Of a stretch of DNA of 32,000 nt, positions 3,517-31,552 are shown piece by piece (the stretch's first letter is position 1; each line of letters opens with the position of its first letter). Source of the stretch: Breznakia blatticola (GTDB lineage Bacteria; Bacillota_I; Bacilli_A; Erysipelotrichales; Erysipelotrichaceae); contig NZ_SODD01000017.1 in assembly GCF_004365815.1 (NCBI RefSeq), forward strand, positions 1-32,000, in the 5' to 3' direction. The position numbers were made by a program, and so were the translations under genes. The notes under the pieces are model-generated. The model worked only from the letters and a program-made list of their open reading frames with translations. It ran no database searches and was not told where the DNA came from.

Positions 3517-3544
3517 GCAACATTTTTTTAATTAAAACATCCTT
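3517..3544 (+). promoter_or_regulatory. Candidate ECF-type promoter, variant form (GCAACATTT-N13-ATCCTT), upstream of sigma gene 1
   Basis: 7/9 match to CCAACCTTT. The AAC-N17 spacing and the downstream hexamer ATCCTT are identical to the site at 4990-5017. It lies 43 nt upstream of ATG 3587. Confidence 0.3.
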
Positions 3545-3586
3545 CTTCTGTAGAAAAGATTGCGTGTGCGTGAAAGGAAGGACAAA

Positions 3587-4981
3587 ATGAACGAAAGGAT
3601 AGATGTTTCAGTTGTACGAAGATTACAAAATGGGGATATGGGGGCTCTTGAAGAAATTTATAGTTTTTATAAGGGACCATTGTATTACTATGCATTATCG
3701 ATTTTAAGAAATCCGGCTGATGCAGAAGAAGTGATGCAAGATGTAATTTGTACAGTTCAAACAAAGATTAATCAATTACGAAACTCAGAATCGTTTCATT
3801 TCTGGTTATTTAGTATTGCAGGAAATGAATGCAAAGGGAAGCTACGGGCAAAAGACAGGATTATTCAGCCAAACGAGGAACATAATATCGAGGATGTTGT
3901 AATAGCTCCTGATAGTCCTGAAAAAGAATTTGATGACTTGAATATATTAAATGTAATCCTAGCTTCATTTCAAAAACTGAGTGATACCTACAAGGAAACA
4001 GCAGAATTGCGGTTCCTTGGTGGATTATCAATGAAGGAGATTGCAGAGAAGTTAGATGTTTCTCCTAGTTTAGTTAAAAGTAGACTCTATGATATTCGAC
4101 AATATGTTATGGCGGACTTAGAACAACAAGGATATAAGCCAGAAACATACTACAGTGTAGAAGCAGGACCGTTATTATTTGTTCAAATGCAGCAAAGCTA
4201 TGAAGCGATGTCTACGGGAAAAGAAACAACTGAAATAGAGTTAACAGATTATTCGTTTCTACAAGGTGTTTTGCAGGGTGTTTGTCAGTTTGGAAGTCAA
4301 GCTGCTAGTGCAATCGGACAAGTATTGAATGCGATTGAATTTTCAAGCCTAGTTTTATCTAGTCTAACTGTTAGTGCACTTGTTTTACCATCGTTGTTTG
4401 GAATACATGATGAATGGTTAGTTAGTGGTTATGATATATTAACGAAACCGGCAGACATTTGTAGATTTGCGGAAGCAAACGCTTCTGACAATAAAGTCAT
4501 CTATAAAAAGCCAAGTTATGCAAATATAATCGATGTAGTTAAATACTATCAAAATCCGATTGCAGGACCGTTAGAGGTTCGAGTCTATTTGGTAAATGGA
4601 TATCAAAATGAAGATATCAGTATTTTATATGAGGATGAAAAACTCAATTATCAAGTAACGAATGAGTATCTATTATTCTATGCAAGTGTAAACGGACGAT
4701 ATGTCATAAATATTGGTAACGATAAGAAGTATTTTGATATCAACAATATTGATAACGATATCCCAGTTGTGACTTCGATGAACTATACAAAAGGAGTCAT
4801 GCGATTTGAAATAAAAGAATCAAAGAACAAGATAGATTATAAAAAGTCGTACATATTATATAAGGATAAGAAAATTACTTTACCTAAGAGTAAAGTAATT
4901 CATGGAATATATGAGGATGTAATAGAAGTTGTGTTGGTTGATGATAAGGGGAATAAAAATACCTTTAGATTCAATATTTAA
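3587..4981 (+). CDS. ECF-like sigma-70 family sigma factor fused to a TM segment and a C-terminal extracytoplasmic domain (copy 1)
   Basis: ATG 3587 is preceded by AAAGGAAGG, and the N-terminus aligns with the paralogue (MNERIDVSVV vs MNKRIDVTYV). Region 2 is represented by DAEEVMQDVI...FHFWLFSIAGNEC. The region 4 HTH is ELRFLGGLSMKEIAEKLDVSPSLVKSRLY. One hydrophobic span is encoded at nt 4334-4402, followed by a conserved beta-rich C-terminal domain. Confidence 0.85.
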   Translation: MNERIDVSVVRRLQNGDMGALEEIYSFYKGPLYYYALSILRNPADAEEVMQDVICTVQTKINQLRNSESFHFWLFSIAGNECKGKLRAKDRIIQPNEEHNIEDVVIAPDSPEKEFDDLNILNVILASFQKLSDTYKETAELRFLGGLSMKEIAEKLDVSPSLVKSRLYDIRQYVMADLEQQGYKPETYYSVEAGPLLFVQMQQSYEAMSTGKETTEIELTDYSFLQGVLQGVCQFGSQAASAIGQVLNAIEFSSLVLSSLTVSALVLPSLFGIHDEWLVSGYDILTKPADICRFAEANASDNKVIYKKPSYANIIDVVKYYQNPIAGPLEVRVYLVNGYQNEDISILYEDEKLNYQVTNEYLLFYASVNGRYVINIGNDKKYFDINNIDNDIPVVTSMNYTKGVMRFEIKESKNKIDYKKSYILYKDKKITLPKSKVIHGIYEDVIEVVLVDDKGNKNTFRFNI

Positions 4982-4989
4982 AAAACTAT

Positions 4990-5017
4990 CCAACCTTTGA
5001 AGGATTACTAAATCCTT
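4990..5017 (+). promoter_or_regulatory. Candidate ECF-type promoter CCAACCTTT-N13-ATCCTT upstream of surface-protein gene 1
   Basis: Exact shared 9-mer located 9 nt after the sigma stop codon, with the same AAC-N17-RTC spacing as the other three exact copies. Confidence 0.45.
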
Positions 5018-5133
5018 TAGGTGTATAGAAAAATGTGTGTGGAGGTATAGAGATGCAGTGGATTACGTAAATTTAACAAAAAGAAAAATTGAAAAAATGA
5101 AAAGTGAAAGTGTAAATATAAATGGAGGAAATT

Positions 5134-7743
5134 ATGAATAAAGCAAAAAAGTATTTAATGATATGTTTAATTAGTGGTTTATTTTTAACTGGGACAGGAT
5201 TTGCAGATGTAGAGCAACCTGTTGAAGATCCAAAAGAAATAACTGAAGTGACAGATGAAGTAGAAGTTACAGAAACAGAAGAAGAAACTGAAGAAGTAAC
5301 TGTAGATGTAGAACAAATAGAAGAAGAGAAATCAGAACCAAAAGCAGCACTTGTTGCACCAGTTGCAACCGCAACGTTAAGTGCACCGATTACACCGGTG
5401 ACTACTGCTGGGGAAACACGTACGATTACAGCTCAAGGAAATTGGGGTGTTGATTGGGTACTTTACGATGACGGAGAATTGGTGTTAAGTGAAGGAGAGT
5501 TAAGAGCGAGAGGTTCCAATGATACTGCTCCGGGTAATTTTGCGGCGTATAAAGATAGTATTGTGAAAATAACAGTTGATGATTTAGTAAACATTCAAGA
5601 TGGAAAAAACCTATTCGGAAAGTACAAAGCCCTTGAAACCATAGAAGGCGGGACGAATTTTACTTTTATAGGAGCTGACATATCACTATATGAGATGTTT
5701 TATCAGTGCAATAGGTTAAGTAAGCTAGATGTGTCCGGATGGGATACAAAAAATGTAACAAATATGCATGGTATGTTCAACGGTTGTAGTAGTATTGCAT
5801 CATTAGACGTATCTGGATGGGATACAAAAAACGTAACAAGTATGGGTTATATGTTTTCTTGGTGTAAAACTTTAGCAGCCGTAGATGTATCTGGATGGGA
5901 TACAAAAAACGTAACAAACATGAATAGTATGTTTGATTATTGCCATGTTTTAACAGAGCTAGATGTATCTGAATGGGATACAGGAAACGTAACAAGTATG
6001 TCTTATATGTTCCAAAGGTGCGATGAGTTAGTGACATTAGATGTATCTGGATGGGATACAAAAAACGTAACAAATATGAACTATATGTTTACTAGTTGTG
6101 GTTTAAGAACCATAGATGTATCTAAATGGGATACAGGAAACGTAAAACACATGAGTAATATGTTTTCCTCAAGTGATTTCAAAGCGCTAGATTTGTCTGG
6201 ATGGAATACAAAAAATGTAATAAATATGAAAGAAATGTTTAGAAATATGATTAGTCTAAGAACGCTAGATTTATCTGGATGGGATACAAGTAGTGTAATA
6301 TATAAGGATTATATATTTAAAAATAATATGATTTATACAATCGCGTTGGGTGAAAATTCAATTTTTTCTGGATGGGACACACTGCTTACAGAAAATTGGA
6401 TGTCACCTACTCCAAGTTGGCGTACTGAAAGATGGATAGGATTAACAACAGGAAACGTTTACAACGATTCTGATGAATTCATGGAAAATTATGATGGCTC
6501 AATTCCAGACACATACCAATGGGAATACTTGGTGAGTATTAATTTTGATTTAAATGGTGGAGATAGAAACCCATTAATATCAACCAAAACTATTAATCAA
6601 TTATCTACAGTTTCATCAATTATAAAAGATATTCCAAATCCAACAAAGAAAGGACATGAATTTCTAGGGTGGGAAATAGTTGGTGATTTGGCATGGGACA
6701 TGGAAACAACCACACCGCATGGCTATGCTTCTAGTAATGACTTGAATATAGAAGAAATGGCTACAACTCCAATTAATCTAAAGGCAAAATGGAAAGCTAA
6801 AGAATACAACATCATTTACAACTTAGATGGCGGTGAAAATGCAACAACTAACCCAACTGGATACACATATGGAGTTGGAGTAAAATCATTCGAAGAACCA
6901 ACAAAAGAAGGGCACACATTCTTAGGTTGGTACAGTGATGCAGACTTCACAACAGAAGTAACATCTATTTCAGAGACACAATTAGAAGACGTAATATTAT
7001 ATGCAAAATGGAAAGCCAATGATTACACAATTAACTATGAATTAGACGGAGGGGCAAATACTTCAGAAAATCCACTAGGATACACCTTTGGTGTAGGGGT
7101 TAAAGCGTTTAAAGCACCAACAAAAGTAGGATTTACATTTGAAGGATGGTACAGTGATGCAGACTTCACAACAGAAGTGACAAATATTAGTGAAACACAG
7201 ATGGAAGATGTAACTCTATACGCAAAATGGGAACTTAACCGTTATACCATCACATATGAACTAGACGGTGGAGAAAACCACAAAGATAACTCAGCAGGAT
7301 TTGCATTTGGTGAAGGCGTAGAAAAACTAGAAGAACCAACAAAAGCTGGATACACATTCTTAGGATGGTTTGATGCACAAACTGGTGGAAATGAAGTAGT
7401 AAAAATCGCGAAAGAAAGAAACGAAGACATTACGCTTTATGCTCGCTGGAAACAAAACCCACAAGAACCAATAGTAAACCCAGATAAAGATAAAGAAAAT
7501 CCAACTGAAAATACACCAAATGATAACAACACAGTAATTAATGCTGATGAAAGTGATAATGGAAGTACTACAGAAAATGTAGTAAACAACCCAAACGTAG
7601 CTCCAGAATTTAACGGTTCGACAGCAAACGTTTCTGGTTCTGTTCAAACAGGTGATGAAACCAACATTATGACTTTATACGTTTTATTAGGATTAGCATT
7701 ATTAAGTGGTGGTATGATTACCAGAAGAAAACTGAAAAAATAG
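5134..7743 (+). CDS. Secreted surface protein with BspA/DUF285-type 26-residue LRRs, Listeria-Bacteroides (Flg_new) repeats and a sorting-signal-like tail (copy 1)
   Basis: ATG 5134 follows TGGAGGA. The signal peptide is MNKAKKYLMICLISGLFLTGTGFA. There are eight D(V/L)SxW(D/N)TxNVxxMxxMF repeats and four Y.I.Y.LDGG...GW...LYAKW modules. A P/N-rich stalk leads to SVQTGDETN, a hydrophobic span and RRKLKK. Confidence 0.9.
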   Translation: MNKAKKYLMICLISGLFLTGTGFADVEQPVEDPKEITEVTDEVEVTETEEETEEVTVDVEQIEEEKSEPKAALVAPVATATLSAPITPVTTAGETRTITAQGNWGVDWVLYDDGELVLSEGELRARGSNDTAPGNFAAYKDSIVKITVDDLVNIQDGKNLFGKYKALETIEGGTNFTFIGADISLYEMFYQCNRLSKLDVSGWDTKNVTNMHGMFNGCSSIASLDVSGWDTKNVTSMGYMFSWCKTLAAVDVSGWDTKNVTNMNSMFDYCHVLTELDVSEWDTGNVTSMSYMFQRCDELVTLDVSGWDTKNVTNMNYMFTSCGLRTIDVSKWDTGNVKHMSNMFSSSDFKALDLSGWNTKNVINMKEMFRNMISLRTLDLSGWDTSSVIYKDYIFKNNMIYTIALGENSIFSGWDTLLTENWMSPTPSWRTERWIGLTTGNVYNDSDEFMENYDGSIPDTYQWEYLVSINFDLNGGDRNPLISTKTINQLSTVSSIIKDIPNPTKKGHEFLGWEIVGDLAWDMETTTPHGYASSNDLNIEEMATTPINLKAKWKAKEYNIIYNLDGGENATTNPTGYTYGVGVKSFEEPTKEGHTFLGWYSDADFTTEVTSISETQLEDVILYAKWKANDYTINYELDGGANTSENPLGYTFGVGVKAFKAPTKVGFTFEGWYSDADFTTEVTNISETQMEDVTLYAKWELNRYTITYELDGGENHKDNSAGFAFGEGVEKLEEPTKAGYTFLGWFDAQTGGNEVVKIAKERNEDITLYARWKQNPQEPIVNPDKDKENPTENTPNDNNTVINADESDNGSTTENVVNNPNVAPEFNGSTANVSGSVQTGDETNIMTLYVLLGLALLSGGMITRRKLKK
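5728..6320 (+). repeat. Tandem 75-78-bp coding repeats (LRR units)
   Basis: The 31-nt core GTATCTGGATGGGATACAAAAAACGTAACAA is identical at 5809, 5887 and 6043. Diverged copies lie at 5731, 5965, 6118, 6193 and 6271. Confidence 0.85.
6802..7458 (+). repeat. Three tandem 219-bp coding modules (Flg_new / Listeria-Bacteroides repeat)
   Basis: Module starts at 6802, 7021 and 7240 are exactly 219 bp apart. They share long identical stretches such as TGGTACAGTGATGCAGACTTCACAACAGAAGT. Confidence 0.85.
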
Positions 7744-7844
7744 TATGGAAAAAGACTCAAAAATTTGTAATGTCATTAAGTTAAGAGTCTATCAACTAAG
7801 CAAAATTCTGGCTCTTTAAAAAAATAAGGGGTTTGAAGAAAATG

Positions 7845-8585
7845 CTTAAAATATCCGTGGGGTGCTTTTACCCCACGGATTATTGTATAAATAATACCCC
7901 CAGATAATCTGGGGGTCCCGATAGGCTTTAGCGGAGTGGTAACGAAAAAACCCTCCTGTATAATTGAGGTGCGGCATAGCAACTGCATCCAACAATAAAT
8001 ACAAGGAGGAAATGTCAATGAATAACAATGACGTACATAGTTTAGCACATAGCAAGTGGTGCTGCAAATACCATATCGTATGGGCACCGAAATACAGGAG
8101 GAAAGTATTTTACGATAGTAAAAGATTAGAAATAGGAAAAATAATAAGAGATCTTTGTGAATGGAAAGGTGTAAATATACTTGAAGCAGAAGTGTGTGTA
8201 GATCACATCCATGTATTAGTAGAAATTCCTCCGAAATATAGCATATCTGGATTTATGGGATATTTAAAAGGAAAAAGTAGTCAGATAATCTATGAGAAAT
8301 GGGGAAATATGAAATTCAAATATCGAGGTCGCTCTTTCTGGTGTAGAGGATATTACGTTGATACGGTAGGGAAAAACACCAAGAAAATAACAGAATATAT
8401 ACAGAATCAACTGAAAGAGGACCGTGAGGCAGAACAATTAACAATGAATTTGAAAGATCCGTTTGGAAAGTAGCGTGCAAGACGCATAGGCGAAGCCAAA
8501 TGAAATAAAACCCCTTTAGGGGTGGCTGTTGGAGGAGGGCTATGCCCGCACAGTAAAATACCACCGGCTAAGCCGGTGGATATTT
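7845..8585 (+). mobile_element. IS200/IS605-family element (tnpA only), boundaries approximate
   Basis: Y1 transposase gene flanked by subterminal hairpins. Upstream: ATCCGTGGGGT-gctttt-ACCCCACGGAT (7853-7880) and ACCCCCAGA-taa-TCTGGGGGT (7896-7916). Downstream: CCACCGGC-taa-GCCGGTGG (8561-8579). The size is typical of IS200. Confidence 0.6.
8018..8473 (+). CDS. tnpA: IS200/IS605 family Y1 (HUH) transposase TnpA
   Basis: AAGGAGGA SD before ATG 8018. HUH motif in VDHIHVLVEIPP and the catalytic-Tyr region ITEYIQNQ. The length is 152 aa. Confidence 0.9.
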   Translation: MNNNDVHSLAHSKWCCKYHIVWAPKYRRKVFYDSKRLEIGKIIRDLCEWKGVNILEAEVCVDHIHVLVEIPPKYSISGFMGYLKGKSSQIIYEKWGNMKFKYRGRSFWCRGYYVDTVGKNTKKITEYIQNQLKEDREAEQLTMNLKDPFGK

Positions 8586-8630
8586 ATTTATAGCCTCAGT
8601 TTTGATTAGAATTATACCAGTTTGATTATG

Positions 8631-9992
8631 TTAACCTTTCTGGTTTTTCTTTTTGTATTTCCCTCGGTTTTTACCTGGTTTTTTGATTTCTTTTTTGTGC
8701 TTAGTTAAAGAAAACTTTTCGAATTGATTTTGTGAAAATATAATACGATTCCTCGCTCTGTCAAAGTTACGAAATCCATTTGCATTACTTAATATTTTCT
8801 TCACGTAGTTGTTCTTTCCTTCAATTGGACCATTGGACAATCTACGACCATTAATCCAAACGAAAGAGTTTAATATTTCTTTCTTCCAATTCATTAGGGT
8901 ATTGGCACAGTAAGTGAACTCTTTGATATCAGAGGTTTCCATTGCTTCAATGATACTCTCAAGCTGTATTCTAGTTTTCTTTGCATTATGCGTAAGTTCT
9001 TCTTGATCATTGAATTGAATATACATTTCCTTTAGTTGATAGGCAACTCTTAGATCTACATCTATTTTTAAGATTTCTTCGAGTACTCGATTCTCATTTG
9101 TATGAAAGCCAAGAATCCTGTCATAGTAAAATGCATCTGAGTTAATATTGTCTCTATTCTTTAAAATGATTTTGTATCTATACTTTAATAACTTGTATTC
9201 CTTACTATCGTGAGTATCGTTGTATTTTCTCATGATACGTTTTCTTACGATATTTAGAGAATCATTAATTTTCTTCACAACGTGAAATGGGTCAACGCAA
9301 ACAGATGCTTCTTTAAAGAATATACTAGCTAAATCACAATAGTTCTTATACATATCGATAATTACGTAATCAACGTTATTACGTTCCTCTCTTGGGATTG
9401 AATAAAAATAACTGTTTAAAAATTGAGTATGTCTAGACTCCAAAATATCTAAGATGATTTTCTTTTCAAAATCCATGATCATAAAGGCATATTTGTATTT
9501 AGAGTGGCTATTGAAATAGAACTCATCTAAACAAATAATTCTACTTAACTTCTTACGTGGTATTTGAACGTAACTATCAAACACGTCAACGACTTTTGAT
9601 ACAGATATATGATATCTTCTGGCAACATCAGAAAATGTTGAATTATATGGTCGCAAATCATTTAATATGCTTATAATTGAATAGGAAGATATTTTTGTTT
9701 GGTCCTTCAAAGTGAATGGGTTACTTTCAGTGAAGGAAGCACGGCAATGCTTACATAAATATCTTCTACAATTATAAAAAATTGTTGTTTCCCGATTCAG
9801 TAAAAATGAATGGGAAATTTTTCTTTTGGTGTAACCTTTGACATACATTGTTTCTTTATCGCATTTTGGACAGTAGTGAACTTTCTTTTTTAATGTTAAC
9901 TCTAAGTTGAAATCCTCTAACGATTTAACTTCTTCTATTTGATCGTATGCCTCTTCAGAAAGAGCTAAAGCTTTCATTATAAATTTCTTCAT
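8631..9992 (-). CDS. ISL3 family transposase
   Basis: 453-aa ORF with GAGGAGGAAA SD. It has an N-terminal zinc-finger pattern (CPKCDKET...CKHC), an HTH region and a long DDE-type catalytic region typical of ISL3 transposases. Confidence 0.9.
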   Translation of the reverse strand: MKKFIMKALALSEEAYDQIEEVKSLEDFNLELTLKKKVHYCPKCDKETMYVKGYTKRKISHSFLLNRETTIFYNCRRYLCKHCRASFTESNPFTLKDQTKISSYSIISILNDLRPYNSTFSDVARRYHISVSKVVDVFDSYVQIPRKKLSRIICLDEFYFNSHSKYKYAFMIMDFEKKIILDILESRHTQFLNSYFYSIPREERNNVDYVIIDMYKNYCDLASIFFKEASVCVDPFHVVKKINDSLNIVRKRIMRKYNDTHDSKEYKLLKYRYKIILKNRDNINSDAFYYDRILGFHTNENRVLEEILKIDVDLRVAYQLKEMYIQFNDQEELTHNAKKTRIQLESIIEAMETSDIKEFTYCANTLMNWKKEILNSFVWINGRRLSNGPIEGKNNYVKKILSNANGFRNFDRARNRIIFSQNQFEKFSLTKHKKEIKKPGKNRGKYKKKNQKG

Positions 9993-26574: not shown

Positions 26575-26807
26575 ATGATCACTCCTTTTTATCTTCATTA
26601 TTATACATCAGAGTGATTGGATTGGTGATATAAATCTTATATTTTAGTAGTTTATGATAGAAAAGGATAATAAAAACAGTGATAATTTATGATGTAATTT
26701 AGCTAAGAAATTATATATGAATACTCTTTATATCATATTGATTGTCATGCTTTACAACACATGCACACAATAATAAAATAGCCCTTGTGTGAATTTTTAA
26801 AAAGTGT

Positions 26808-26835
26808 CCAACCTTTTGGACTTTAAAAAGTCTTA
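26808..26835 (+). promoter_or_regulatory. Candidate ECF-type promoter CCAACCTTT-N13-GTCTTA upstream of sigma gene 2
   Basis: Exact shared 9-mer with the same AAC-N17-RTC spacing. It ends 31 nt upstream of ATG 26866. Confidence 0.45.
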
Positions 26836-26865: not shown

Positions 26866-28161
26866 ATGAACAAACGGATAGATGTAACTTATGTGCGAAA
26901 GTTACAAGAAGGAGACCTTACTGCCTTGGAGGAAATATATCGTTTTTACCAAGGGCCAATATATTATTATGCACTTTCAATTTTGAAAAATAAGCACGAT
27001 GCAGAAGAAGTTATGCAGGAAGTGGTGTATAAAGTGCAAACAAGAATTCATCAATTAAAGAATCCAGAGTCTTTTCATTTCTGGATGTTTTCTATTGCAT
27101 CAAATGAATGTACTTCACGGTTGCGTGTACGTAAGCGATTCATCCAAACCGATGAAGAAAACACACTTGAAGAGGTGATAAAAGCAAAAAATAACCAAAT
27201 TAATGATTTTAATAATTCGACACTAATGGGTGCAATATTAAATTCATTTCAAAAATTAAGTGAGAATAATCGAAGGACAGCTGAACTACGTTACTTGAGT
27301 GGACTAACTTTAGAAGAAATCGCAAAAGCAACACATGTGGAAACGAAAACTGTAAAGAGTAGGTTGTATGAAGTACGAAAGATGGTCTCAAGTGACTTGA
27401 AAGAGCAAGGTTATCATCCACGTAAATATTTTACATTTTTGGGGATTCCACTGTTTTATAAGGAAATGCAGTTAACTTTTCTTAAAGAGCGAAATAAAGT
27501 TCTATTAAAGGACTATTCGTCAATGCAAACATTGATGCAAATTATCACTAATGCAGAAAAGATTAGTCTATTTTTAAGTTGTGCAATTGCATCGGTAGTA
27601 ATAACTCCCGTAATACCAGCAATAGTTAACGTTCCAACAAATGATTTGATTGTACTTCCTGCAACTGCATCAAACATTCAGTATAAAAAGTCTGATCGTA
27701 TAGGTGTTATTGATACAATCTCATATATTCAAAATCCAATTGCTGGTCCTTTAGAAGTACGGGTGTATGTATACGATATGTCAAAAATAGAAAATATCTC
27801 TATTACTTATGAAGGTATTGAATGTAACTATCAAAAATATGAGACTTATGTAGGTATAAACGTTGTTAAAAATGGAAGATATCACGTACGAATAAATAAT
27901 GATGAAAAGTTTTTTGACGTAACAAATATTGATTATGATATTCCGATTGTTGAAAGATTGGATTTTTATGATGATTCATTTGAAATCGTTGTTAAGGTAA
28001 CTGTGAATCAAGTAGATGTTGAGAAGTCGTATCTATTGATTGATCAACAAAGAGTATCGTTTCCAAAAGATTTTATTGTGTCTGTGAAAGATGCAGAAAA
28101 TGTCGATGTGATCTTAGTTGATGATAAAGGAAATGAAAATTGCTTTAATTTTAAAAAATAA
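26866..28161 (+). CDS. ECF-like sigma-70 family sigma factor fused to a TM segment and a C-terminal extracytoplasmic domain (copy 2)
   Basis: GAGGAG SD. Region 2 is represented by DAEEVMQEVV...FHFWMFSIASNEC. The region 4 HTH is ELRYLSGLTLEEIAKATHVETKTVKSRLY. One hydrophobic span is encoded at nt 27562-27627. The C-terminal domain shares IQNPIAGPLEVRVYV, NGRYHVRINNDEKFFDVTNIDYDIPIV and LVDDKGNENCFNF with copy 1. Confidence 0.85.
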   Translation: MNKRIDVTYVRKLQEGDLTALEEIYRFYQGPIYYYALSILKNKHDAEEVMQEVVYKVQTRIHQLKNPESFHFWMFSIASNECTSRLRVRKRFIQTDEENTLEEVIKAKNNQINDFNNSTLMGAILNSFQKLSENNRRTAELRYLSGLTLEEIAKATHVETKTVKSRLYEVRKMVSSDLKEQGYHPRKYFTFLGIPLFYKEMQLTFLKERNKVLLKDYSSMQTLMQIITNAEKISLFLSCAIASVVITPVIPAIVNVPTNDLIVLPATASNIQYKKSDRIGVIDTISYIQNPIAGPLEVRVYVYDMSKIENISITYEGIECNYQKYETYVGINVVKNGRYHVRINNDEKFFDVTNIDYDIPIVERLDFYDDSFEIVVKVTVNQVDVEKSYLLIDQQRVSFPKDFIVSVKDAENVDVILVDDKGNENCFNFKK

Positions 28162-28162
28162 A

Positions 28163-28190
28163 CCAACCTTTAAAAGGTAAGTGCGTCGTA
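28163..28190 (+). promoter_or_regulatory. Candidate ECF-type promoter CCAACCTTT-N13-GTCGTA upstream of surface-protein gene 2
   Basis: Exact shared 9-mer starting 2 nt after the sigma stop. The -10 region reads CGTCGTA, the best match to the classical ECF AAC/CGTC layout. Confidence 0.5.
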
Positions 28191-28289
28191 CTGGTAAGGA
28201 TATATATGTGTGAGGAGGTAGCAATGATCAAGAGAAGAAAAGTGTAAATGTTTTAACAAAAGTTATGTGTGAAAATAAAGGAGGAAACT

Positions 28290-30716
28290 ATGTTAAAAAG
28301 AAATAAAAAATTTTTAGTTTTATTAATAGCAGTTATGTTTATTACAAGTACTGGTTTTACTGATGAAGTACAACCAAACGAAATCAATGAACCAATTGAA
28401 GATGAACAAACGACTTACGAAGAGAAAGTATTAGAAGATGAAAAAGAAGACACCAATGTATTTATAGTAGATGAAGAAAATACAACGCAAGAAGACGTTG
28501 TAGAAAAAAGTATGAATAATTTGACTCGTGCTACTGATGAAAGAGTCATATATGCACAAGATAATATTGGAGTTGAATGGATATTGTATGCTGATGGAGA
28601 ATTGGTTATCCATGGTGGTACCATCAATATCATTACAGATTCAAGCAAACGATACTTCAAACAATATTCAGATATTATCACCTCTATTACCTTCGCTGGA
28701 GATGTATACTATACACGCCCAGATGGAGGACTTGGTAACTATATGTTTGCTGACTTAAAAAACTTAGTAACTGTGAATAATTTTGATCGATTTAAATTAA
28801 GTGGAGATGCATCTGGATTATTTATAGCGTGTGAAAAGTTGAAAAATATCGATACAACAAATTTTGCCACTGACAATATTACAAATTTTACAATGATGTT
28901 TTCCTATTGTGAGTCACTTGAGTATATAAATGTAAGTAATTGGAATGTAGATAACGTAACATCTATGTGGTCAATGTTTAGTCATTGCTATTCATTAAGA
29001 GAAATCGATATATCACAATGGACGTTTAAAAATGCAACTGATATTTCCTATGTGTTTTATAGATGTCGAGAATTGTTAGAACTTGATTTTTCTAGTATGG
29101 ATCCAGTTAATGAAGTCACTAAGGAAAAGATGCTTGGTAGTGAGCTAGCAAGCTCAATGAGAAACAAACTGCGTAAAATAACACTTGGTAAAACCGCACT
29201 AGGTGCTAATACAGATATATATGCCAGAGATTGGAGAGAACTTGATACAGGCATCGTTCATTCGGCTAAATTTTTGGATACACACGATACAAGTAAAACA
29301 ATTACCTATATTTGGGATGCGAAGCATGCAGTTTTCTATAATCCAGCAGGTGGAACATTGACTGGTCCTGCAAAAGAGGAAGTTGATGTTATAGAAAGTT
29401 CATTTACTAAACCAACAGACCCAACACATGAGCATGCTACATTTGTAAGATGGTTTACTTCAAGATGGGATTATGATAAAAAAGAGCTTATTTATGAAGA
29501 ATGGGACTATAGTAGTATTCCAGTTCTAAACATGCCTTATACTACTGAAGTGTATGCAGAGTGGGACTACGATACTTATAAAATTTCATATGAATTAAAT
29601 GGTGGAACGATTAGTCAATTATATCCAACAGAATACAAGTATAATACAGAAGTACGGGGATTTAACACTCCATCTAAGGAGGGATATTTCTTCCTTGGAT
29701 GGTATGATGCAAATGAGGGTGGTAACAAAGTAACTTCGATTAGTTCAACAGAATTTGGTGATAAAAAACTATATGCACGTTGGTCTCCTAGAATGTATCA
29801 AATAACTTATGAACTAGATGGCGGAACAAACCACGACTCAAATCCAAGTTCATATGCATACGATACAGGTGTGAGCAAACTTGAAAATCCAACGAAAGAA
29901 GGATATACATTCATTGGATGGTTTGATGATGTAAATGAAGGTAATCAAATTACAAGCATCGATAAAAAGTCAAAAGAACATGTAACGATTTATGCACGCT
30001 GGATGGCAAATCAATATGCAATCATTTATGAGCTAAATGGTGGAATTAATGATACAAATAATCCGACTTCATATGCTTACGAACTAGGGGTAGACACATT
30101 TGAAGAGCCGACAAAATATGGACATACTTTTTTGGGATGGTATGATGCACCTGAAAAAGGTAATCAAATCACAAATATAGCGAAAGATTCTATTGGTCAT
30201 AAAACACTATATGCAAAATGGAAAGTAAATGATTACAAGGTAAACTATGAGTTAGATGGTGGAATAAACTCCCTTGATAATCCAATGCAATATACATACG
30301 GTATTGGAGTGAGTGAATTTGAAAAACCGAATAAAGAAGATTACACATTTATTGGTTGGTTTAATGCAGCAGAAGATGGAAAAGAGATTACTAATATTGA
30401 TGGTTCAACTGCTGAAGATGTAACATTATATGCACGTTGGAAAAAGAACGAGAAACCTACACCTCCTAGTGAAGAACCATCAAAACCTATTGAAAAACCA
30501 AATGACGATAAAAACAGTAATACAAATATAACCGATACAAATAATGACAAAGCAAATGTGAATGCAAGTGTAGCTCCTACTTTTAGCGGAACACAAGCAA
30601 ACGCACAAACTCCGGTTGATACAAGTGATAGTGTGAATCGAGATGCTCTATTATATGTTGGTATAATTTCGTTGTTATCGATTGTAGTTTTATTAAAAAG
30701 AAAACATTCAATTTAA
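28290..30716 (+). CDS. Secreted surface protein with degenerate BspA/DUF285-type LRRs, Listeria-Bacteroides (Flg_new) repeats and a sorting-signal-like tail (copy 2)
   Basis: ATG 28290 follows AAAGGAGG. Signal peptide MLKRNKKFLVLLIAVMFITSTGFT. LRR units such as NVSNWNVDNVTSMWSMFSHCYSL. Five Y.I.YELxGG...GW...YA.W modules. PVDTSDSVN is followed by a hydrophobic span and KRKHSI. Confidence 0.9.
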   Translation: MLKRNKKFLVLLIAVMFITSTGFTDEVQPNEINEPIEDEQTTYEEKVLEDEKEDTNVFIVDEENTTQEDVVEKSMNNLTRATDERVIYAQDNIGVEWILYADGELVIHGGTINIITDSSKRYFKQYSDIITSITFAGDVYYTRPDGGLGNYMFADLKNLVTVNNFDRFKLSGDASGLFIACEKLKNIDTTNFATDNITNFTMMFSYCESLEYINVSNWNVDNVTSMWSMFSHCYSLREIDISQWTFKNATDISYVFYRCRELLELDFSSMDPVNEVTKEKMLGSELASSMRNKLRKITLGKTALGANTDIYARDWRELDTGIVHSAKFLDTHDTSKTITYIWDAKHAVFYNPAGGTLTGPAKEEVDVIESSFTKPTDPTHEHATFVRWFTSRWDYDKKELIYEEWDYSSIPVLNMPYTTEVYAEWDYDTYKISYELNGGTISQLYPTEYKYNTEVRGFNTPSKEGYFFLGWYDANEGGNKVTSISSTEFGDKKLYARWSPRMYQITYELDGGTNHDSNPSSYAYDTGVSKLENPTKEGYTFIGWFDDVNEGNQITSIDKKSKEHVTIYARWMANQYAIIYELNGGINDTNNPTSYAYELGVDTFEEPTKYGHTFLGWYDAPEKGNQITNIAKDSIGHKTLYAKWKVNDYKVNYELDGGINSLDNPMQYTYGIGVSEFEKPNKEDYTFIGWFNAAEDGKEITNIDGSTAEDVTLYARWKKNEKPTPPSEEPSKPIEKPNDDKNSNTNITDTNNDKANVNASVAPTFSGTQANAQTPVDTSDSVNRDALLYVGIISLLSIVVLLKRKHSI
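29577..30445 (+). repeat. Four tandem 219-bp coding modules (Flg_new repeat), plus a degenerate fifth upstream
   Basis: Conserved Tyr codons at 29577, 29796, 30015 and 30234 are exactly 219 bp apart. Confidence 0.85.
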
Positions 30717-30815
30717 TGACTAAGGACTTTGTAGTAAATACTATGAAGTCTTTTTTGTTGAATCAAGGGGATTCTCGATAAATTGAAAAATAAAGTGATT
30801 TTCCTTACGAAAAAT

Positions 30816-30843
30816 CCAACCTTTTTCAAATATATGCATCTAA
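30816..30843 (+). promoter_or_regulatory. Orphan copy of the candidate ECF-type promoter (CCAACCTTT-N13-ATCTAA)
   Basis: Exact shared 9-mer and spacing, 100 nt after the adhesin 2 stop. No ORF with an SD follows before the hairpin at 31007-31046. Confidence 0.35.
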
Positions 30844-31006
30844 TTAATAGAAGGTAATTAGATTATTATTCTTCTTAGGATAGCCTATGTCCTACAAACT
30901 TCCTTATAAAACACACACATAAACACACAAACGGAAAAACACTAGGCGGGTATTTTATACCAAGTACAATTGAGGGATTGTACACTACTTACTATTTAGG
31001 TAAGTA

Positions 31007-31046
31007 AAAAGGTCAACTTTGCATGTATATGTTAAGTTGACCTTTT
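31007..31046. terminator. Long hairpin, terminator-like
   Basis: AAAAGGTCAACTT pairs with AAGTTGACCTTTT (13-bp stem, 14-nt loop). Confidence 0.55.
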
Positions 31047-31171
31047 CCATTATAAGATGGTTATAAACGGAGTTGATGTTTGTGAAATCCCTATGGCATT
31101 CAGCATACAAAGATGGTAGTATTTTAGTAACGGAATTATCGTTCATGCTATGGCGGAAAGGCGAGGGGATA

Positions 31172-31552
31172 ATGAGTAAGTATCAAGATGAAAAACTAGG
31201 GAATCAATTCTTGGGACAACTGAAAGACTTAAAAGATATTCATAATTATCATGAGTATGTTGATTTTGTGCGTCATTATATTGAGTACATTTGGGGAGGA
31301 AATACAAAGTTATTGGATACCAATCCATTTGGTGTAACATTATTAGCTACACATGAAGAATATGATGAAACGATTGCAGTTGTGGTGTTGTATCAAAGTA
31401 GTGATGTTGCATATGAGCAAATTATGAGTGCTCTTGAGGGACAAGCATATATGCAAACCAACAGTTTAAGTGTGATTAGTAATCAGTCGATGGATGCGGC
31501 TGCTAAAACACTAGCAGAAGATCATTCCATCCTATATTTTAAATTCTCGTAA
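31172..31552 (+). CDS. Hypothetical protein (126 aa), no recognisable motifs
   Basis: ATG 31172 follows GGCGAGGGG. The ORF is followed by a strong terminator. The longer track ORF from 31073 lacks an SD. Confidence 0.55.
   Translation: MSKYQDEKLGNQFLGQLKDLKDIHNYHEYVDFVRHYIEYIWGGNTKLLDTNPFGVTLLATHEEYDETIAVVVLYQSSDVAYEQIMSALEGQAYMQTNSLSVISNQSMDAAAKTLAEDHSILYFKFS

What the first reader, a model, noticed from the sequence alone, without database searches (positions are those of the whole stretch)
3587..4981. Sigma factor, membrane anchor and extracytoplasmic domain in one polypeptide, with no separate anti-sigma gene
Counting from ATG 3587, the first ~185 residues carry ECF-like sigma region 2 (DAEEVMQDVI, FHFWLFSIAGNEC) and a region 4 HTH (ELRFLGGLSMKEIAEKLDVSPSLVKSRLY). 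These are followed by a ~65-aa linker, a single hydrophobic span (IEFSSLVLSSLTVSALVLPSLFG, nt 4334-4402) and a ~190-aa beta-rich domain. That domain must be outside the cell if the sigma part is cytoplasmic. The paralogue at 26866-28161 has the same layout and the same C-terminal signatures (QNPIAGPLEVRVY; NGRY.I/V.I.ND.K.FD..NID.DIP.V; LVDDKGN.N.F.F). Classical ECF signalling splits these roles between a sigma and a membrane anti-sigma (SigW/RsiW, SigI/RsgI). Here sensing, tethering and promoter recognition appear fused, which implies either release by regulated proteolysis or activity while tethered to the membrane. I do not recognise the C-terminal domain as a named family.
Basis: partly seen in the sequence, partly recalled or inferred. 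Interest (0 to 1): 0.75.

Follow-up and report, generated by a model that had tools for sequence, protein, structure and literature searches.

The report
Membrane-tethered sigma factor with adhesin partner
This gene really does encode a transcription factor (an ECF sigma factor), a membrane anchor and an outside-facing sensor domain in one protein; it belongs to a small, undescribed family of gut Erysipelotrichales bacteria in which each such protein sits next to, and probably switches on, its own cell-wall-anchored adhesin gene.

Summary
ORF 3587-4981 (464 aa, Breznakia blatticola) is intact. It has ECF sigma regions 2 and 4, a ~60-aa poorly conserved linker, one N-in/C-out TM helix, a stalk, and a C-terminal ectodomain with no Pfam or PDB sequence match. 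AlphaFold (pLDDT 91.7) and Foldseek show the ectodomain is two tandem Ig-like beta-sandwiches.

The architecture is a family trait, not an assembly artefact. About 90 cluster representatives of 415-465 aa carry the ectodomain C-terminally; all 70 of those scanned have both sigma regions. The named members are Erysipelotrichales.

In all 11 distinct cassettes examined, the next gene encodes a signal-peptide protein, usually BspA/DUF285-LRR or Listeria-Bacteroides-repeat type; every complete one ends in an xTGD-type wall-sorting signal. A shared ECF-like promoter (CCAACCTTT, then about 15 nt, then a clade-specific -10) precedes both the sigma and the adhesin gene.

Distant relatives carry the same ectodomain on a separate membrane protein encoded just after a stand-alone ECF sigma. 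So this is best read as a sigma/anti-sigma-type fusion.

Release by regulated proteolysis is the most likely mechanism, but it is inferred, not shown. Fused precedents exist (IutY, ECF52), so this is a new variant, not a new kind.

A candidate sigma-dependent small RNA, complementary to the sigma mRNA leader, was noticed.

The parts
3517..3549 (+). Putative autoregulated ECF-type promoter of sigma gene 1 (-35 GCAACATTT at 3517-3525; -10 TCCTTCTTCT at 3540-3549)
   Evidence: Pattern scan. It has the same -10 type (TCCTT) as the orthologous L008 promoter and as the internal promoter at 4990.
3562..3586 (+). GU-rich leader plus Shine-Dalgarno (GCGTGTGCGTGAAAGGAAGG) in front of the sigma start codon
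   Evidence: GTGTGTG is enriched in 6 of 18 upstream/intergenic regions against 0.12 expected. Sequence read.
3587..4981 (+). Fused ECF sigma / TM / ectodomain gene (464 aa)
3668..3859 (+). Sigma region 2 (residues 28-91)
   Evidence: Pfam PF04542, E 2.6e-10. Mean column information 2.25 bits in the 70-member family.
3956..4099 (+). Sigma region 4 HTH (residues 124-171)
   Evidence: Pfam PF08281, E 1.2e-8. 2.24 bits.
4127..4186 (+). Conserved post-sigma-4 motif (GYxPxxYYS, then a hydrophobic helix; residues 181-200); possible autoinhibitory or membrane-proximal element
   Evidence: 1.76 bits of conservation, against 0.77 bits for the rest of the linker. No Pfam anti-sigma hit.
4187..4330 (+). 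Variable cytoplasmic linker (residues 201-248)
   Evidence: 0.77 bits and 20% gaps. pLDDT below 50.
4331..4402 (+). Single transmembrane helix (residues 249-272), N-in/C-out, containing Ser and Pro
   Evidence: Hydropathy peak of 2.03. In the family, K/R before versus after the helix averages 2.0 versus 0.9. Pro268 is invariant in the close clade.
4403..4522 (+). Poorly conserved extracytoplasmic stalk (residues 273-312); candidate site-1 cleavage region
   Evidence: 0.48 bits and 59% gaps. Low pLDDT.
4523..4978 (+). Ectodomain of two tandem Ig-like beta-sandwiches (about residues 313-386 and 393-464, joined by NIDNDIP)
   Evidence: AF2 model with pLDDT 91.7 and 13 strands. Foldseek matches tandem Ig/FN3 ectodomains, best E 8.7e-5. 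No Pfam or PDB sequence match.
4990..5016 (+). Internal ECF-type promoter 9 nt after the sigma stop codon (CCAACCTTT ... TCCT), serving adhesin gene 1
   Evidence: Exact 9-mer found 4 times in the window against 0.23 expected. Same position in L001, L002, L004 and L008. No terminator lies between the two genes.
5033..5045 (+). Copy of the GU-rich leader/SD (ATGTGTGTGGAGG), followed by a 5-codon mini-ORF, inside the adhesin 5' UTR
5122..7743 (+). Cognate surface protein 1 (873 aa): signal peptide, DUF285/PARCEL LRR-like repeats, 4 Listeria-Bacteroides repeats, VQTGD sorting-like signal
   Evidence: Pfam PF03382 E 3e-66 and PF09479 E 6e-54. N and C termini read.
26808..26835 (+). Promoter of sigma gene 2 (CCAACCTTT ... 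TCTTACGTAT)
26866..28161 (+). Paralogous fused sigma (431 aa): sigma2 at 26938-27138, sigma4 at 27232-27381, TM at about 27559-27627, ectodomain at about 27685-28158
28163..28191 (+). Internal promoter 2 nt after the sigma 2 stop codon (CCAACCTTT ... GCGTCGTAC), serving adhesin gene 2
   Evidence: No terminator lies between the genes.
28269..30716 (+). Cognate surface protein 2 (815 aa): signal peptide, DUF285/LRR_5, 5 Listeria-Bacteroides repeats, VDTSD sorting-like signal
30722..30753 (+). Intrinsic terminator after adhesin gene 2
30816..30842 (+). Third copy of the family promoter (CCAACCTTT ... ATCTAA), with no protein gene directly behind it
   Evidence: The same arrangement occurs in L008 (6245) and L006 (9175).
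30851..31047 (+). Candidate sigma-dependent small RNA (~200 nt, 5' end estimated). Its unpaired stretch 30898-30934 (ACUUCCUUAUAAAACACACAC...) is complementary to the sigma mRNA leader/SD. It ends in the hairpin 31010-31043 plus UUUU.
   Evidence: There is no Rfam hit. Peripheral to the finding; inferred only.

Best explanation
The gene encodes a one-polypeptide sigma/anti-sigma-type signalling protein.

Shown:
- It has an N-terminal cytoplasmic ECF sigma (regions 2 and 4), a ~60-aa linker and one N-in/C-out TM helix.
- It has a variable stalk and an extracytoplasmic sensor made of two tandem Ig-like domains.
- It belongs to a family of such fusions in Erysipelotrichales.
- Each member is encoded immediately upstream of a large secreted protein gene. 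These are mostly BspA/DUF285-LRR or internalin-repeat type, and the complete ones carry a sortase-type anchor.

Well supported but inferred: the sigma recognises a family-specific ECF-type promoter (-35 CCAACCTTT, about 15 nt, then a clade-specific -10). That promoter stands in front of its own gene (autoregulation) and in front of the adjacent adhesin gene. So each cassette is a private sigma-plus-target module.

Inferred by analogy: in the resting state the sigma is held inactive at the membrane, by tethering and perhaps by the conserved post-sigma-4 helix. A signal at the Ig-like ectodomain leads to trimming in the variable stalk. A site-2 protease (RasP-type) then cuts within the Gly/Ser/Pro-rich TM helix. 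The released sigma joins RNA polymerase and raises transcription of itself and its adhesin.
For: Architecture:
- Pfam/NCBIfam sigma hits; closest solved relative is B. subtilis SigW, E 1.5e-12.
- Single TM with positive-inside bias.
- Ectodomain model pLDDT 91.7 with tandem-Ig Foldseek matches.

Family:
- The ectodomain profile finds 120 representatives. About 90 are 415-465 aa with the domain at the C-terminus.
- All 70 scanned carry Sigma70_r2 and r4_2.
- The sigma and Ig domains are conserved (2.2 and 1.8 bits); the linker and stalk are not.

Module:
- All 11 distinct cassettes are followed on the same strand by a protein with a signal peptide. The ten whose 3' end lies on the contig also end in an xTGD-type motif, a hydrophobic stretch and a K/R tail.
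- The flanking genes differ between loci.

Promoter:
- Exact CCAACCTTT occurs 4 times in the window against 0.23 expected, 0 of 100 shuffles reaching 4. All four are on the + strand at cassette boundaries.
- AACCTTT is among the most enriched 7-mers in 18 upstream/intergenic regions, 8 against 0.15 expected.
- A bipartite match occurs in 14 of 21 regions.
- The -10 differs between sigma clades, and each clade has the same -10 upstream and internally: TCCTT for P0001/P0003, CGT for P0007, CTTAT for P0004-6, ATCTAA for P0009.

Anti-sigma ancestry:
- In L016/L017 and L014 the same ectodomain (hhalign 98.4%, E 6e-15) sits on a 255-aa TM protein.
- That protein is encoded 8 nt (L016/L017) or about 300 nt (L014) after a stand-alone 188-192-aa ECF sigma, and is followed by LPXTG or SdrD-like surface proteins.

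RIP plausibility:
- 64 of 70 TM segments contain Pro, two or more Gly, or four or more Ser/Thr/Asn.
- Precedent: IutY is released by Prc and RseP (PMC5411451). ECF48/52/53 are predicted to work likewise (PMC8999054).
Against: - No cleavage, release or promoter activity has been measured.
- The linker shows no recognisable anti-sigma domain: Pfam found nothing at E<=10 in 10 linkers, and 0 of 70 have a zinc-finger ZAS motif.
- Its structure is predicted with pLDDT below 50, so intramolecular inhibition is conjecture.
- The cytoplasmic part of the split relatives does not align with the fused linker.
- The -10 assignments come from few sites per clade and were aligned by eye before the pattern was scored, so the pattern counts are partly circular.
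- L006 lacks the internal promoter, and in the wider family the two genes are simply co-transcribed.
- TM helix-destabilising residues are common in many single-pass proteins, and no control set was scored.
- The ligand of the ectodomain is unknown.
Confidence: 0.6

Rival explanations
1. The sigma is active while tethered. The protein is never cleaved. The ~60-aa flexible linker lets the membrane-bound sigma recruit core RNA polymerase and the nearby promoter, as ToxR, TcpP and CadC bind DNA from the membrane. The ectodomain then modulates activity by conformation or oligomerisation. A bonus would be that the secreted adhesin is transcribed and translated next to the membrane.
For: - No anti-sigma domain is detectable in the linker.
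- The linker is long (42-76 aa, median 60) and poorly conserved, as expected for a mere tether.
- The target gene lies directly adjacent in cis in all 11 cassettes.
Against: - Homologous ectodomains occur on separate membrane proteins next to soluble stand-alone ECF sigmas. That points to an inhibitory, anti-sigma-like ancestry for the membrane part.
- The only experimentally studied fused ECF, IutY, needs proteolytic release (PMC5411451).
- I know of no example of a sigma factor working while membrane-anchored (my own knowledge; the literature searches found none).
- The TM helices are rich in Gly, Ser and Pro.
Confidence: 0.2
2. The membrane and Ig-like part is not a sensor. It is a structural or localisation module, for example placing the protein near the secretion or sortase machinery. 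Expression of the adhesin is then governed mainly by how much sigma is made (transcriptional or small-RNA control), with constitutive slow release.
For: - The Ig-like fold is generic and no ligand site can be named.
- Autoregulatory promoters and a possible small-RNA feedback exist.
Against: - The two Ig domains are nearly as conserved as the sigma domains (1.8 against 2.2 bits).
- They are retained in about 90 fused representatives and in the split anti-sigma-like proteins. That argues for a specific selected function coupled to sigma control.
Confidence: 0.12
3. CCAACCTTT is not a promoter. It is a repeat of another kind that happens to flank the genes, such as a cassette boundary or recombination site, an operator for another regulator, or part of a hairpin.
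For: - Copies lie at all three boundaries of cassette 2 (26808, 28163, 30816), and the cassettes sit in unrelated genomic contexts.
- Some copies overlap short palindromes, e.g. GTCCAACCTTTTGGAC at 26806-26821.
Against: - The palindromes are in different registers and are absent at several sites.
- The motif has the AAC core typical of ECF -35 elements (established knowledge of ECF promoters). It is always on the coding strand.
- It is always followed at a fixed distance by a second element that is the same for the two promoters of one cassette and differs between sigma clades.
- In the wider family it occurs only upstream of the sigma gene, where the two genes abut.
- No recombinase gene is linked.
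Confidence: 0.08
4. The fusion is an artefact: a sequencing frameshift or lost stop codon joined a sigma gene to a separate anti-sigma gene.
For: Split versions of the arrangement do exist in distant relatives.
Against: - The same continuous reading frame is found in two paralogues in this window and in further paralogues in the same species.
- It is also found in about 90 independent cluster representatives from isolates and metagenomes.
Confidence: 0.01

Closest known systems
IutY of Pseudomonas putida (sigma/anti-sigma hybrid, FecI-like group ECF243)
   Same: One polypeptide with an N-terminal cytoplasmic ECF sigma, one TM helix and an extracytoplasmic C-terminal domain. There is no separate anti-sigma gene. 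It is shown to be activated by sequential proteolysis (Prc, then RseP) that releases the sigma (PMC5411451, PMC8999054).
   Different: IutY is part of a Gram-negative cell-surface signalling system with a TonB-dependent receptor, and its periplasmic part is a FecR-type anti-sigma domain. Here the host is a Gram-positive-type Erysipelotrichales bacterium. The ectodomain is a tandem Ig-like module with no FecR hit. The target is an adhesin-like wall protein, not an iron-uptake system.
Actinobacterial ECF48/ECF52/ECF53 sigma factors (e.g. SCO4117 of Streptomyces coelicolor)
   Same: ECF sigma fused C-terminally to TM helix(es) and an extracytoplasmic extension. They are predicted to be activated by proteolysis (PMC8999054, PMC5826349).
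   Different: Those proteins carry a zinc-finger (ZAS-like) domain after the sigma, a Pro-rich region and a carbohydrate-binding domain. Here 0 of 70 members have H-x3-C-x2-C, and the ectodomain is Ig-like. The phylum and genomic context also differ.
Classical split ECF sigma / single-pass anti-sigma pairs regulated by intramembrane proteolysis (SigW/RsiW, SigV/RsiV; also SigI/RsgI)
   Same: The logic is the same: a cytoplasmic sigma, a single-pass membrane partner with an outside sensor, and autoregulation. SigW is the closest solved sigma. Distant relatives of this family's ectodomain are found in exactly this split arrangement.
   Different: Here the two roles are one protein. No class I anti-sigma domain, RsgI_N domain or SEAL domain is detectable (the model is all-beta Ig-like).
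Membrane-bound one-component transcription activators (ToxR, TcpP, CadC)
   Same: A DNA-recognition module, a single TM helix and an outside sensor in one polypeptide. This is the model for the 'active while tethered' rival.
   Different: Those are winged-helix activators that bind DNA directly. This is a sigma subunit that must join RNA polymerase core.

Membership tests
ECF (group 4) sigma-70 family | Sigma regions 2 and 4 present, region 3 absent, about 170-200 aa core | tested here: met
   PF04542 and PF08281 hit, with no region 3 hit. TIGR02937 scores 86.8 bits against a cut-off of 42.9. Matches to solved ECF sigmas SigW, SigH, SigE and SigK.
ECF (group 4) sigma-70 family | Target promoters with an AAC-containing -35 and a short -10 about 16-17 nt downstream, usually including the sigma's own promoter | tested here: inconclusive
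   A conserved CCAACCTTT/AAC-N-TT element plus a clade-specific downstream element is found before the sigma and adhesin genes. No transcription start data exist.
A named ECF group of the ECF Hub / Casas-Pastor 2021 classification | Score above threshold against the group HMM | not testable with these tools
   The group HMMs are not available here. No NCBIfam subfamily or equivalog model reaches its cut-off. The paper's main text lists no Firmicutes group with a one-TM Ig-like extension, and its supplement is not held.
IutY / FecI-FecR-type sigma/anti-sigma hybrid (ECF243) | FecR-type periplasmic anti-sigma domain C-terminal to the TM helix | tested here: not met
   No FecR or any other Pfam hit in the C-terminal 280 residues, even at E<=1.
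ECF52-type fused sigma | Zinc-finger (H-x3-C-x2-C) anti-sigma domain between sigma region 4 and the TM helix | tested here: not met
   0 of 70 linkers carry the motif and 1 of 70 has any CxxC. No zf-HC2 hit.
Class I anti-sigma domain (ASD) | Three- to four-helix cytoplasmic bundle that binds sigma regions 2 and 4 | tested here: inconclusive
   No Pfam hit at E<=10 in 10 diverse linkers. AF2 predicts 2-3 helices, but with pLDDT below 50. Only the first ~20 residues after region 4 are conserved. ASDs are known to be very divergent.
Substrate of regulated intramembrane proteolysis (site-2 protease) | Single-pass type II (N-in) membrane protein with helix-destabilising residues in the TM segment | tested here: met
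   One hydrophobic peak per protein in 58 of 70 (the rest weaker, in the same place). K/R count is 2.0 before the helix against 0.9 after it. 64 of 70 TM segments have Pro, two or more Gly, or four or more Ser/Thr/Asn. No control set was scored.
Substrate of regulated intramembrane proteolysis (site-2 protease) | Signal-dependent site-1 trimming followed by intramembrane cleavage | not testable with these tools
   Needs westerns of tagged protein in wild type and in a site-2 protease mutant.
Immunoglobulin-like beta-sandwich ectodomains | Two seven-stranded-type beta-sandwiches in tandem | tested here: met
   Model with pLDDT 91.7, 6 + 7 strands. Top Foldseek hits are tandem Ig/FN3 ectodomains (nectin-like 4, sDscam, myomesin, IL-13Ra), E down to 8.7e-5 and TM-score 0.3-0.45. 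The profile also hits repeated Ig-like modules of giant surface proteins annotated BiPBP_C, Big_13 and DUF7743.
Sortase-anchored surface proteins (for the neighbouring gene) | N-terminal signal peptide, plus a C-terminal LPXTG-like motif, hydrophobic stretch and basic tail | tested here: inconclusive
   All 11 fused-cassette neighbours have a signal-peptide-like N terminus. The 10 complete ones end in (V/I/N)xTGD or VDTSD, about 20 hydrophobic residues and K/R. TIGR01167 scores 13.8 bits, below its cut-off of 15.9. The L016 neighbour (a split locus) passes PF00746. The motif is a variant, not canonical LPXTG.

The most novel reading that the evidence does not exclude
Each cassette is a self-contained three-part adhesin circuit.
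1. A membrane-tethered pro-sigma whose Ig-like ectodomain monitors its own cognate wall-anchored LRR adhesin. The signal could be ligand engagement or pulling force on the adhesin, as in the mechanotransduction model proposed for RsgI. Engagement would trigger release of the sigma.
2. The adhesin gene, driven by a private promoter.
3. A sigma-dependent small RNA whose CUUCCUU...CACACAC stretch masks the GUGUGUG-GGAGG leader/Shine-Dalgarno of the sigma mRNA, giving negative feedback.
Several such orthogonal circuits per genome would let the bacterium tune each adhesin separately.
Probability: 0.15. Interest if true: 0.8.

Novelty: new variant of a known kind. Interest (0 to 1): 0.55.

Why it matters
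Fused sigma/anti-sigma proteins have been studied experimentally in essentially one case, IutY, a Gram-negative iron-signalling protein. This family offers a compact Gram-positive-type counterpart with a different, well-folded sensor domain and an obvious one-gene output next door.

If the model holds, it gives a simple system for asking two questions: how an outside signal frees a sigma factor without a separate anti-sigma, and how gut Erysipelotrichales regulate BspA/internalin-like adhesins, whose control is largely unknown.

The multiple paralogous cassettes have clade-specific -10 elements, so they could also supply orthogonal sigma/promoter pairs for synthetic biology.

The candidate small RNA, if real, would add a feedback layer of a type known for sigma E in enterobacteria but not for fused ECFs.

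Tried and rejected
- The search for homologous proteins with the 47-sequence ectodomain alignment A4 returned nothing, not even the query's own family, so that search was wasted. The HMMER representative search supplied the family instead.
With A2 it found only the MTC7 genome. I therefore could not count copies per genome or draw a wider taxonomic map.
- The ectodomain profile against PDB sequences gave only a chance hit at E 0.69. Pfam at E<=1 on 47 ectodomains gave only scattered noise.
- The full-length AF2 model with 8 sequences was poor outside sigma region 2 and the ectodomain (mean pLDDT 57.6).
- I considered reading CCAACCTTT as a palindromic operator or hairpin. I set this aside because the palindromes are in different registers and often absent.
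- RNA duplex prediction with whole ~150-200-nt candidate small RNAs against long leaders was uninformative, with long spurious duplexes. Only the seed-versus-35-nt-window analysis separated targets from controls.
- A metagenome scan for the small-RNA seed found one unrelated chance match.
- Rfam found no family anywhere in the window.
- A SEAL/SEA-like autoproteolytic juxtamembrane domain, as in RsgI (bioRxiv 10.1101/2023.06.27.546760), was considered. The folded ectodomain is all-beta Ig-like and the stalk is unconserved, so nothing supports it.
- The supplement of the ECF classification paper is not held, so group assignment could not be looked up.
Full report
**1. The observation**

The window is 34% G+C. 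It comes from Breznakia blatticola, an Erysipelotrichaceae bacterium. The translated ORF is 100% identical over 464 aa to a protein NCBI annotates there simply as "RNA polymerase sigma factor (sigma-70 family)".

The ORF 3587-4981 is intact. ATG 3587 is the true start. It has an AGGAAGG ribosome-binding site, and the N-terminus MN(K/E)RID is shared by all homologues.

Pfam finds Sigma70_r2 at residues 28-91 and Sigma70_r4_2 at 124-171. It finds no region 3 and nothing after residue ~180. NCBIfam's ECF superfamily model passes its cut-off, but no subfamily or equivalog model does. The closest solved sigma is B. subtilis SigW.

The paralogue at 26866-28161 aligns end to end (42% identity, E 1e-128). 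It shows all the quoted C-terminal signatures.

**2. The C-terminal domain**

A profile of the C-terminal ~160 residues was searched against 1.84 billion representative proteins and gave 120 hits. About 90 are proteins of 415-465 aa with the domain at the very C-terminus. A few are giant surface proteins in which a similar module is repeated up to 22 times. Those giants are annotated with Ig-like families (BiPBP_C, Big_13, DUF7743, Cadherin-like).

With a 47-sequence alignment, AlphaFold gives a confident all-beta model: pLDDT 91.7, with 6 + 7 strands separated by the conserved NID(K/N)xxP linker. Foldseek against the PDB returns only tandem Ig/FN3 ectodomains, such as nectin-like 4, sDscam, myomesin and cytokine receptors. 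The best E is 8.7e-5 and TM-scores are 0.3-0.45.

No Pfam model matches and no PDB sequence matches. So the domain is two tandem Ig-like sandwiches of an undescribed sequence family. That is a typical extracellular binding module, not a cytoplasmic domain.

**3. The fusion is a family trait**

All 70 full-length representatives scanned contain both sigma domains. Of these, 58 have exactly one strong hydrophobic peak at position ~220-260. The other 12 have a weaker Gly/Ala-rich hydrophobic stretch in the same place.

Lys and Arg are twice as frequent in the 15 residues before the helix as in the 15 after it. This fits a cytoplasmic N-terminus.

Column conservation, in bits:

| Region | Bits | Note |
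|---|---|---|
| Sigma region 2 | 2.25 | |
| Sigma region 4 | 2.24 | |
| ~20 residues after region 4 (GYxPxKYFS plus a hydrophobic helix) | 1.76 | |
| Rest of the linker | 0.77 | |
| TM helix | 1.03 | |
| Stalk | 0.48 | 59% gaps |
| Ig domain 1 | 1.78 | |
| Ig domain 2 | 1.83 | |

Members with a source name come from Breznakia blatticola (at least four paralogues: P0001, P0002, P0007, P0009), B. pachnodae, a Coprobacillaceae MAG and Erysipelotrichaceae bacterium MTC7. A TM-plus-ectodomain-only relative is from Thomasclavelia. Most others are metagenome contigs in very small clusters. A frameshift artefact is excluded.

**4. Genomic context**

Eleven distinct cassettes were examined: two in the window, plus L001/L002, L004, L006, L008, L010, L011, L012 (two in tandem) and L013. 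In every one the fused sigma gene is followed on the same strand by a large ORF.

Nine of these ORFs carry DUF285/PARCEL, LRR_5 or other LRR hits. The other two have only Listeria-Bacteroides (Flg_new) repeats, one of them below the Pfam cut-off. All have a signal-peptide-like N-terminus. The ten complete ones end in (V/I/N)xTGD or VDTSD, then a hydrophobic stretch and a basic tail. This is a variant sortase-type sorting signal.

The genes on either side of the pair differ from locus to locus, so the two genes form a unit. No conserved anti-sigma candidate exists.

**5. A shared promoter**

Directly after the sigma stop codon (2-9 nt) in both window cassettes, and in L001, L002 and L004, lies the exact 9-mer CCAACCTTT (CAAACCTTT in L008). 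The same 9-mer or a close variant lies 55-70 nt upstream of the sigma start codons.

In the window the exact 9-mer occurs four times against 0.23 expected, and none of 100 shuffles reached four. All four copies are on the + strand at cassette boundaries. An unbiased k-mer count over 18 upstream/intergenic regions ranks AACCTTT (8 regions against 0.15 expected) and GTGTGTG (6 against 0.12) among the most enriched 7-mers.

About 15 nt downstream of the AAC-containing element is a second short element. It is the same for the two promoters of one cassette but differs between sigma clades:

| Sigma clade | -10 element |
|---|---|
| P0001 / P0003 | TCCTT |
| P0007 | CGT(C/A) |
| P0004-P0006 | CTTAT |
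| P0009 | ATCTAA |

This layout is that of an ECF promoter (an AAC -35 and a short -10; established knowledge). It implies autoregulation plus direct control of the adhesin gene.

There is no terminator between the two genes. In more distant members the genes abut or overlap, and only the upstream promoter is present. The pattern was refined by eye before it was scored, so the pattern statistics are partly circular. The 9-mer and k-mer statistics are not.

**6. Is the membrane part an anti-sigma factor?**

The linker has no detectable anti-sigma domain and no zinc-finger motif. Its predicted structure is unreliable.

However, two distant members of the ectodomain family, P0102 and P0118 (255 aa), have a short cytoplasmic N-terminus, a TM helix and the tandem Ig domain (hhalign 98.4%, E 6e-15). 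They are encoded downstream of a stand-alone 188-192-aa ECF sigma: 8 nt after it in L016/L017 and about 300 nt after it in L014. They are followed by LPXTG or SdrD-like surface-protein genes.

That is the classical sigma/anti-sigma operon. The simplest reading is that the Breznakia-type proteins are fusions of such a pair.

Fused sigma/anti-sigma proteins are known. IutY of P. putida is released by Prc and RseP (PMC5411451). ECF48/52/53 of Actinobacteria are predicted to behave likewise (PMC8999054). The ECF reclassification counts 19 groups with C-terminal extensions (PMC7826278).

The TM helices of this family are rich in Gly, Ser, Thr and Pro (64 of 70). The stalk is variable and could be trimmed. 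I therefore favour signal-dependent proteolytic release (confidence ~0.6 for the whole model). The architecture and the sigma-adhesin coupling are much firmer than the release step. Activity while tethered remains a live rival (0.2).

**7. Comparison and novelty**

The protein is an ECF sigma; that membership test is met. It is not a FecR-type hybrid like IutY, and not a ZAS-containing ECF52-type protein. Both defining features were tested and not met.

It works like those fusions but has a different sensor (tandem Ig-like), a different lineage (Erysipelotrichales) and a different output (a private adhesin gene). Literature searches found no description of it. I rate it a new variant of a known kind, with interest 0.55.

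**8. Noticed in passing: a candidate small RNA**

A third copy of the promoter stands after adhesin gene 2 (30816), with no protein gene behind it. The same arrangement occurs in L008 and L006. In all three loci it is followed after 150-200 nt by a hairpin with a U-run.

All three transcripts would carry CUUCCUU(N0-8)CACACA(C) in a stretch that is unpaired in the MFE fold. This is the reverse complement of the GUGUGUG...GGAGGAA leader and Shine-Dalgarno in front of the sigma genes.

Predicted seed-leader duplexes are -15 to -26 kcal/mol. For the -32..+3 regions of 17 other genes the means are -7.2 to -7.9 kcal/mol. The motif occurs nowhere else in the window or the loci.

This could be a sigma-dependent feedback small RNA. 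It is unproven and has no Rfam match.

Noticed in passing
window 30816-31047; L008 6245-6432; L006 9175-9380: A third, orphan copy of the family promoter lies after the adhesin gene. It is followed by 150-200 nt with no conserved ORF and then a hairpin with a U-run. The transcript would carry CUUCCUU...CACACAC in an unpaired stretch. That stretch is complementary to the GUGUGUG-GGAGG leader/SD of the sigma mRNAs (duplex -15 to -26 kcal/mol, against about -7 for 17 control genes). This is a candidate sigma-dependent feedback small RNA; it has no Rfam match.
   Followed up: partly
window 5033-5062, 28213-28246; L008 ~4150-4180: After the internal promoter, the adhesin 5' UTR contains a copy of the sigma leader (ATGTGTGTGGAGG). 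It is followed 6-8 nt later by an ATG and a 5-7-codon mini-ORF: MQWIT*, MIKRRKV* or MESITQ*. This could be a relic of a duplicated sigma promoter/leader/start region, or a leader peptide. The true adhesin SD and start lie 60-80 nt further on.
   Followed up: partly
window 4127-4186 (residues 181-200) and the equivalent in the family: A conserved motif follows sigma region 4 directly: G(Y/F)xPxKYFS, then a Pro and a hydrophobic/amphipathic helix (1.76 bits). It is absent from the stand-alone sigmas of the split loci. It might be the part that folds back on the sigma, or that lies on the membrane.
   Followed up: partly
L016 4426-5768, L017, L014 2228-3868: Split versions of the system exist. 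A stand-alone 188-192-aa ECF sigma is followed by a 255-aa TM protein with the same tandem Ig-like ectodomain, and then by LPXTG, pilin-like (GBS104-like_Ig, VWA) or SdrD_B surface proteins. The ectodomain type therefore seems generally linked to control of wall-anchored proteins.
   Followed up: partly
window 7743 and 30716 (C-termini of the adhesins) and 9 other loci: The cassette-linked surface proteins end in (V/I/N)xTGD or VDTSD, not canonical LPXTG, followed by a hydrophobic stretch and a K/R tail. This is probably a lineage-specific sortase motif. From memory, it resembles the NVQTG-type signals of Clostridioides difficile.
   Followed up: no
window 7830-9992: Two mobile elements sit directly after adhesin gene 1: an IS200-like Y1 transposase (7964-8473, PF01797, E 1e-38), preceded by strong hairpins at 7848-7880 and 7905-7925, and an ISL3 transposase on the minus strand (8631-9992). 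They may have displaced the third promoter / small-RNA unit that cassette 2 retains.
   Followed up: no
L012 1294-9156: Two complete sigma-plus-LRR-protein cassettes lie in tandem on one metagenomic contig. This shows the module multiplies by local duplication.
   Followed up: no
window 31172-31552: A 126-aa ORF with no Pfam hit lies downstream of the candidate small RNA. It is unclear whether the third promoter also reads into it.
   Followed up: no
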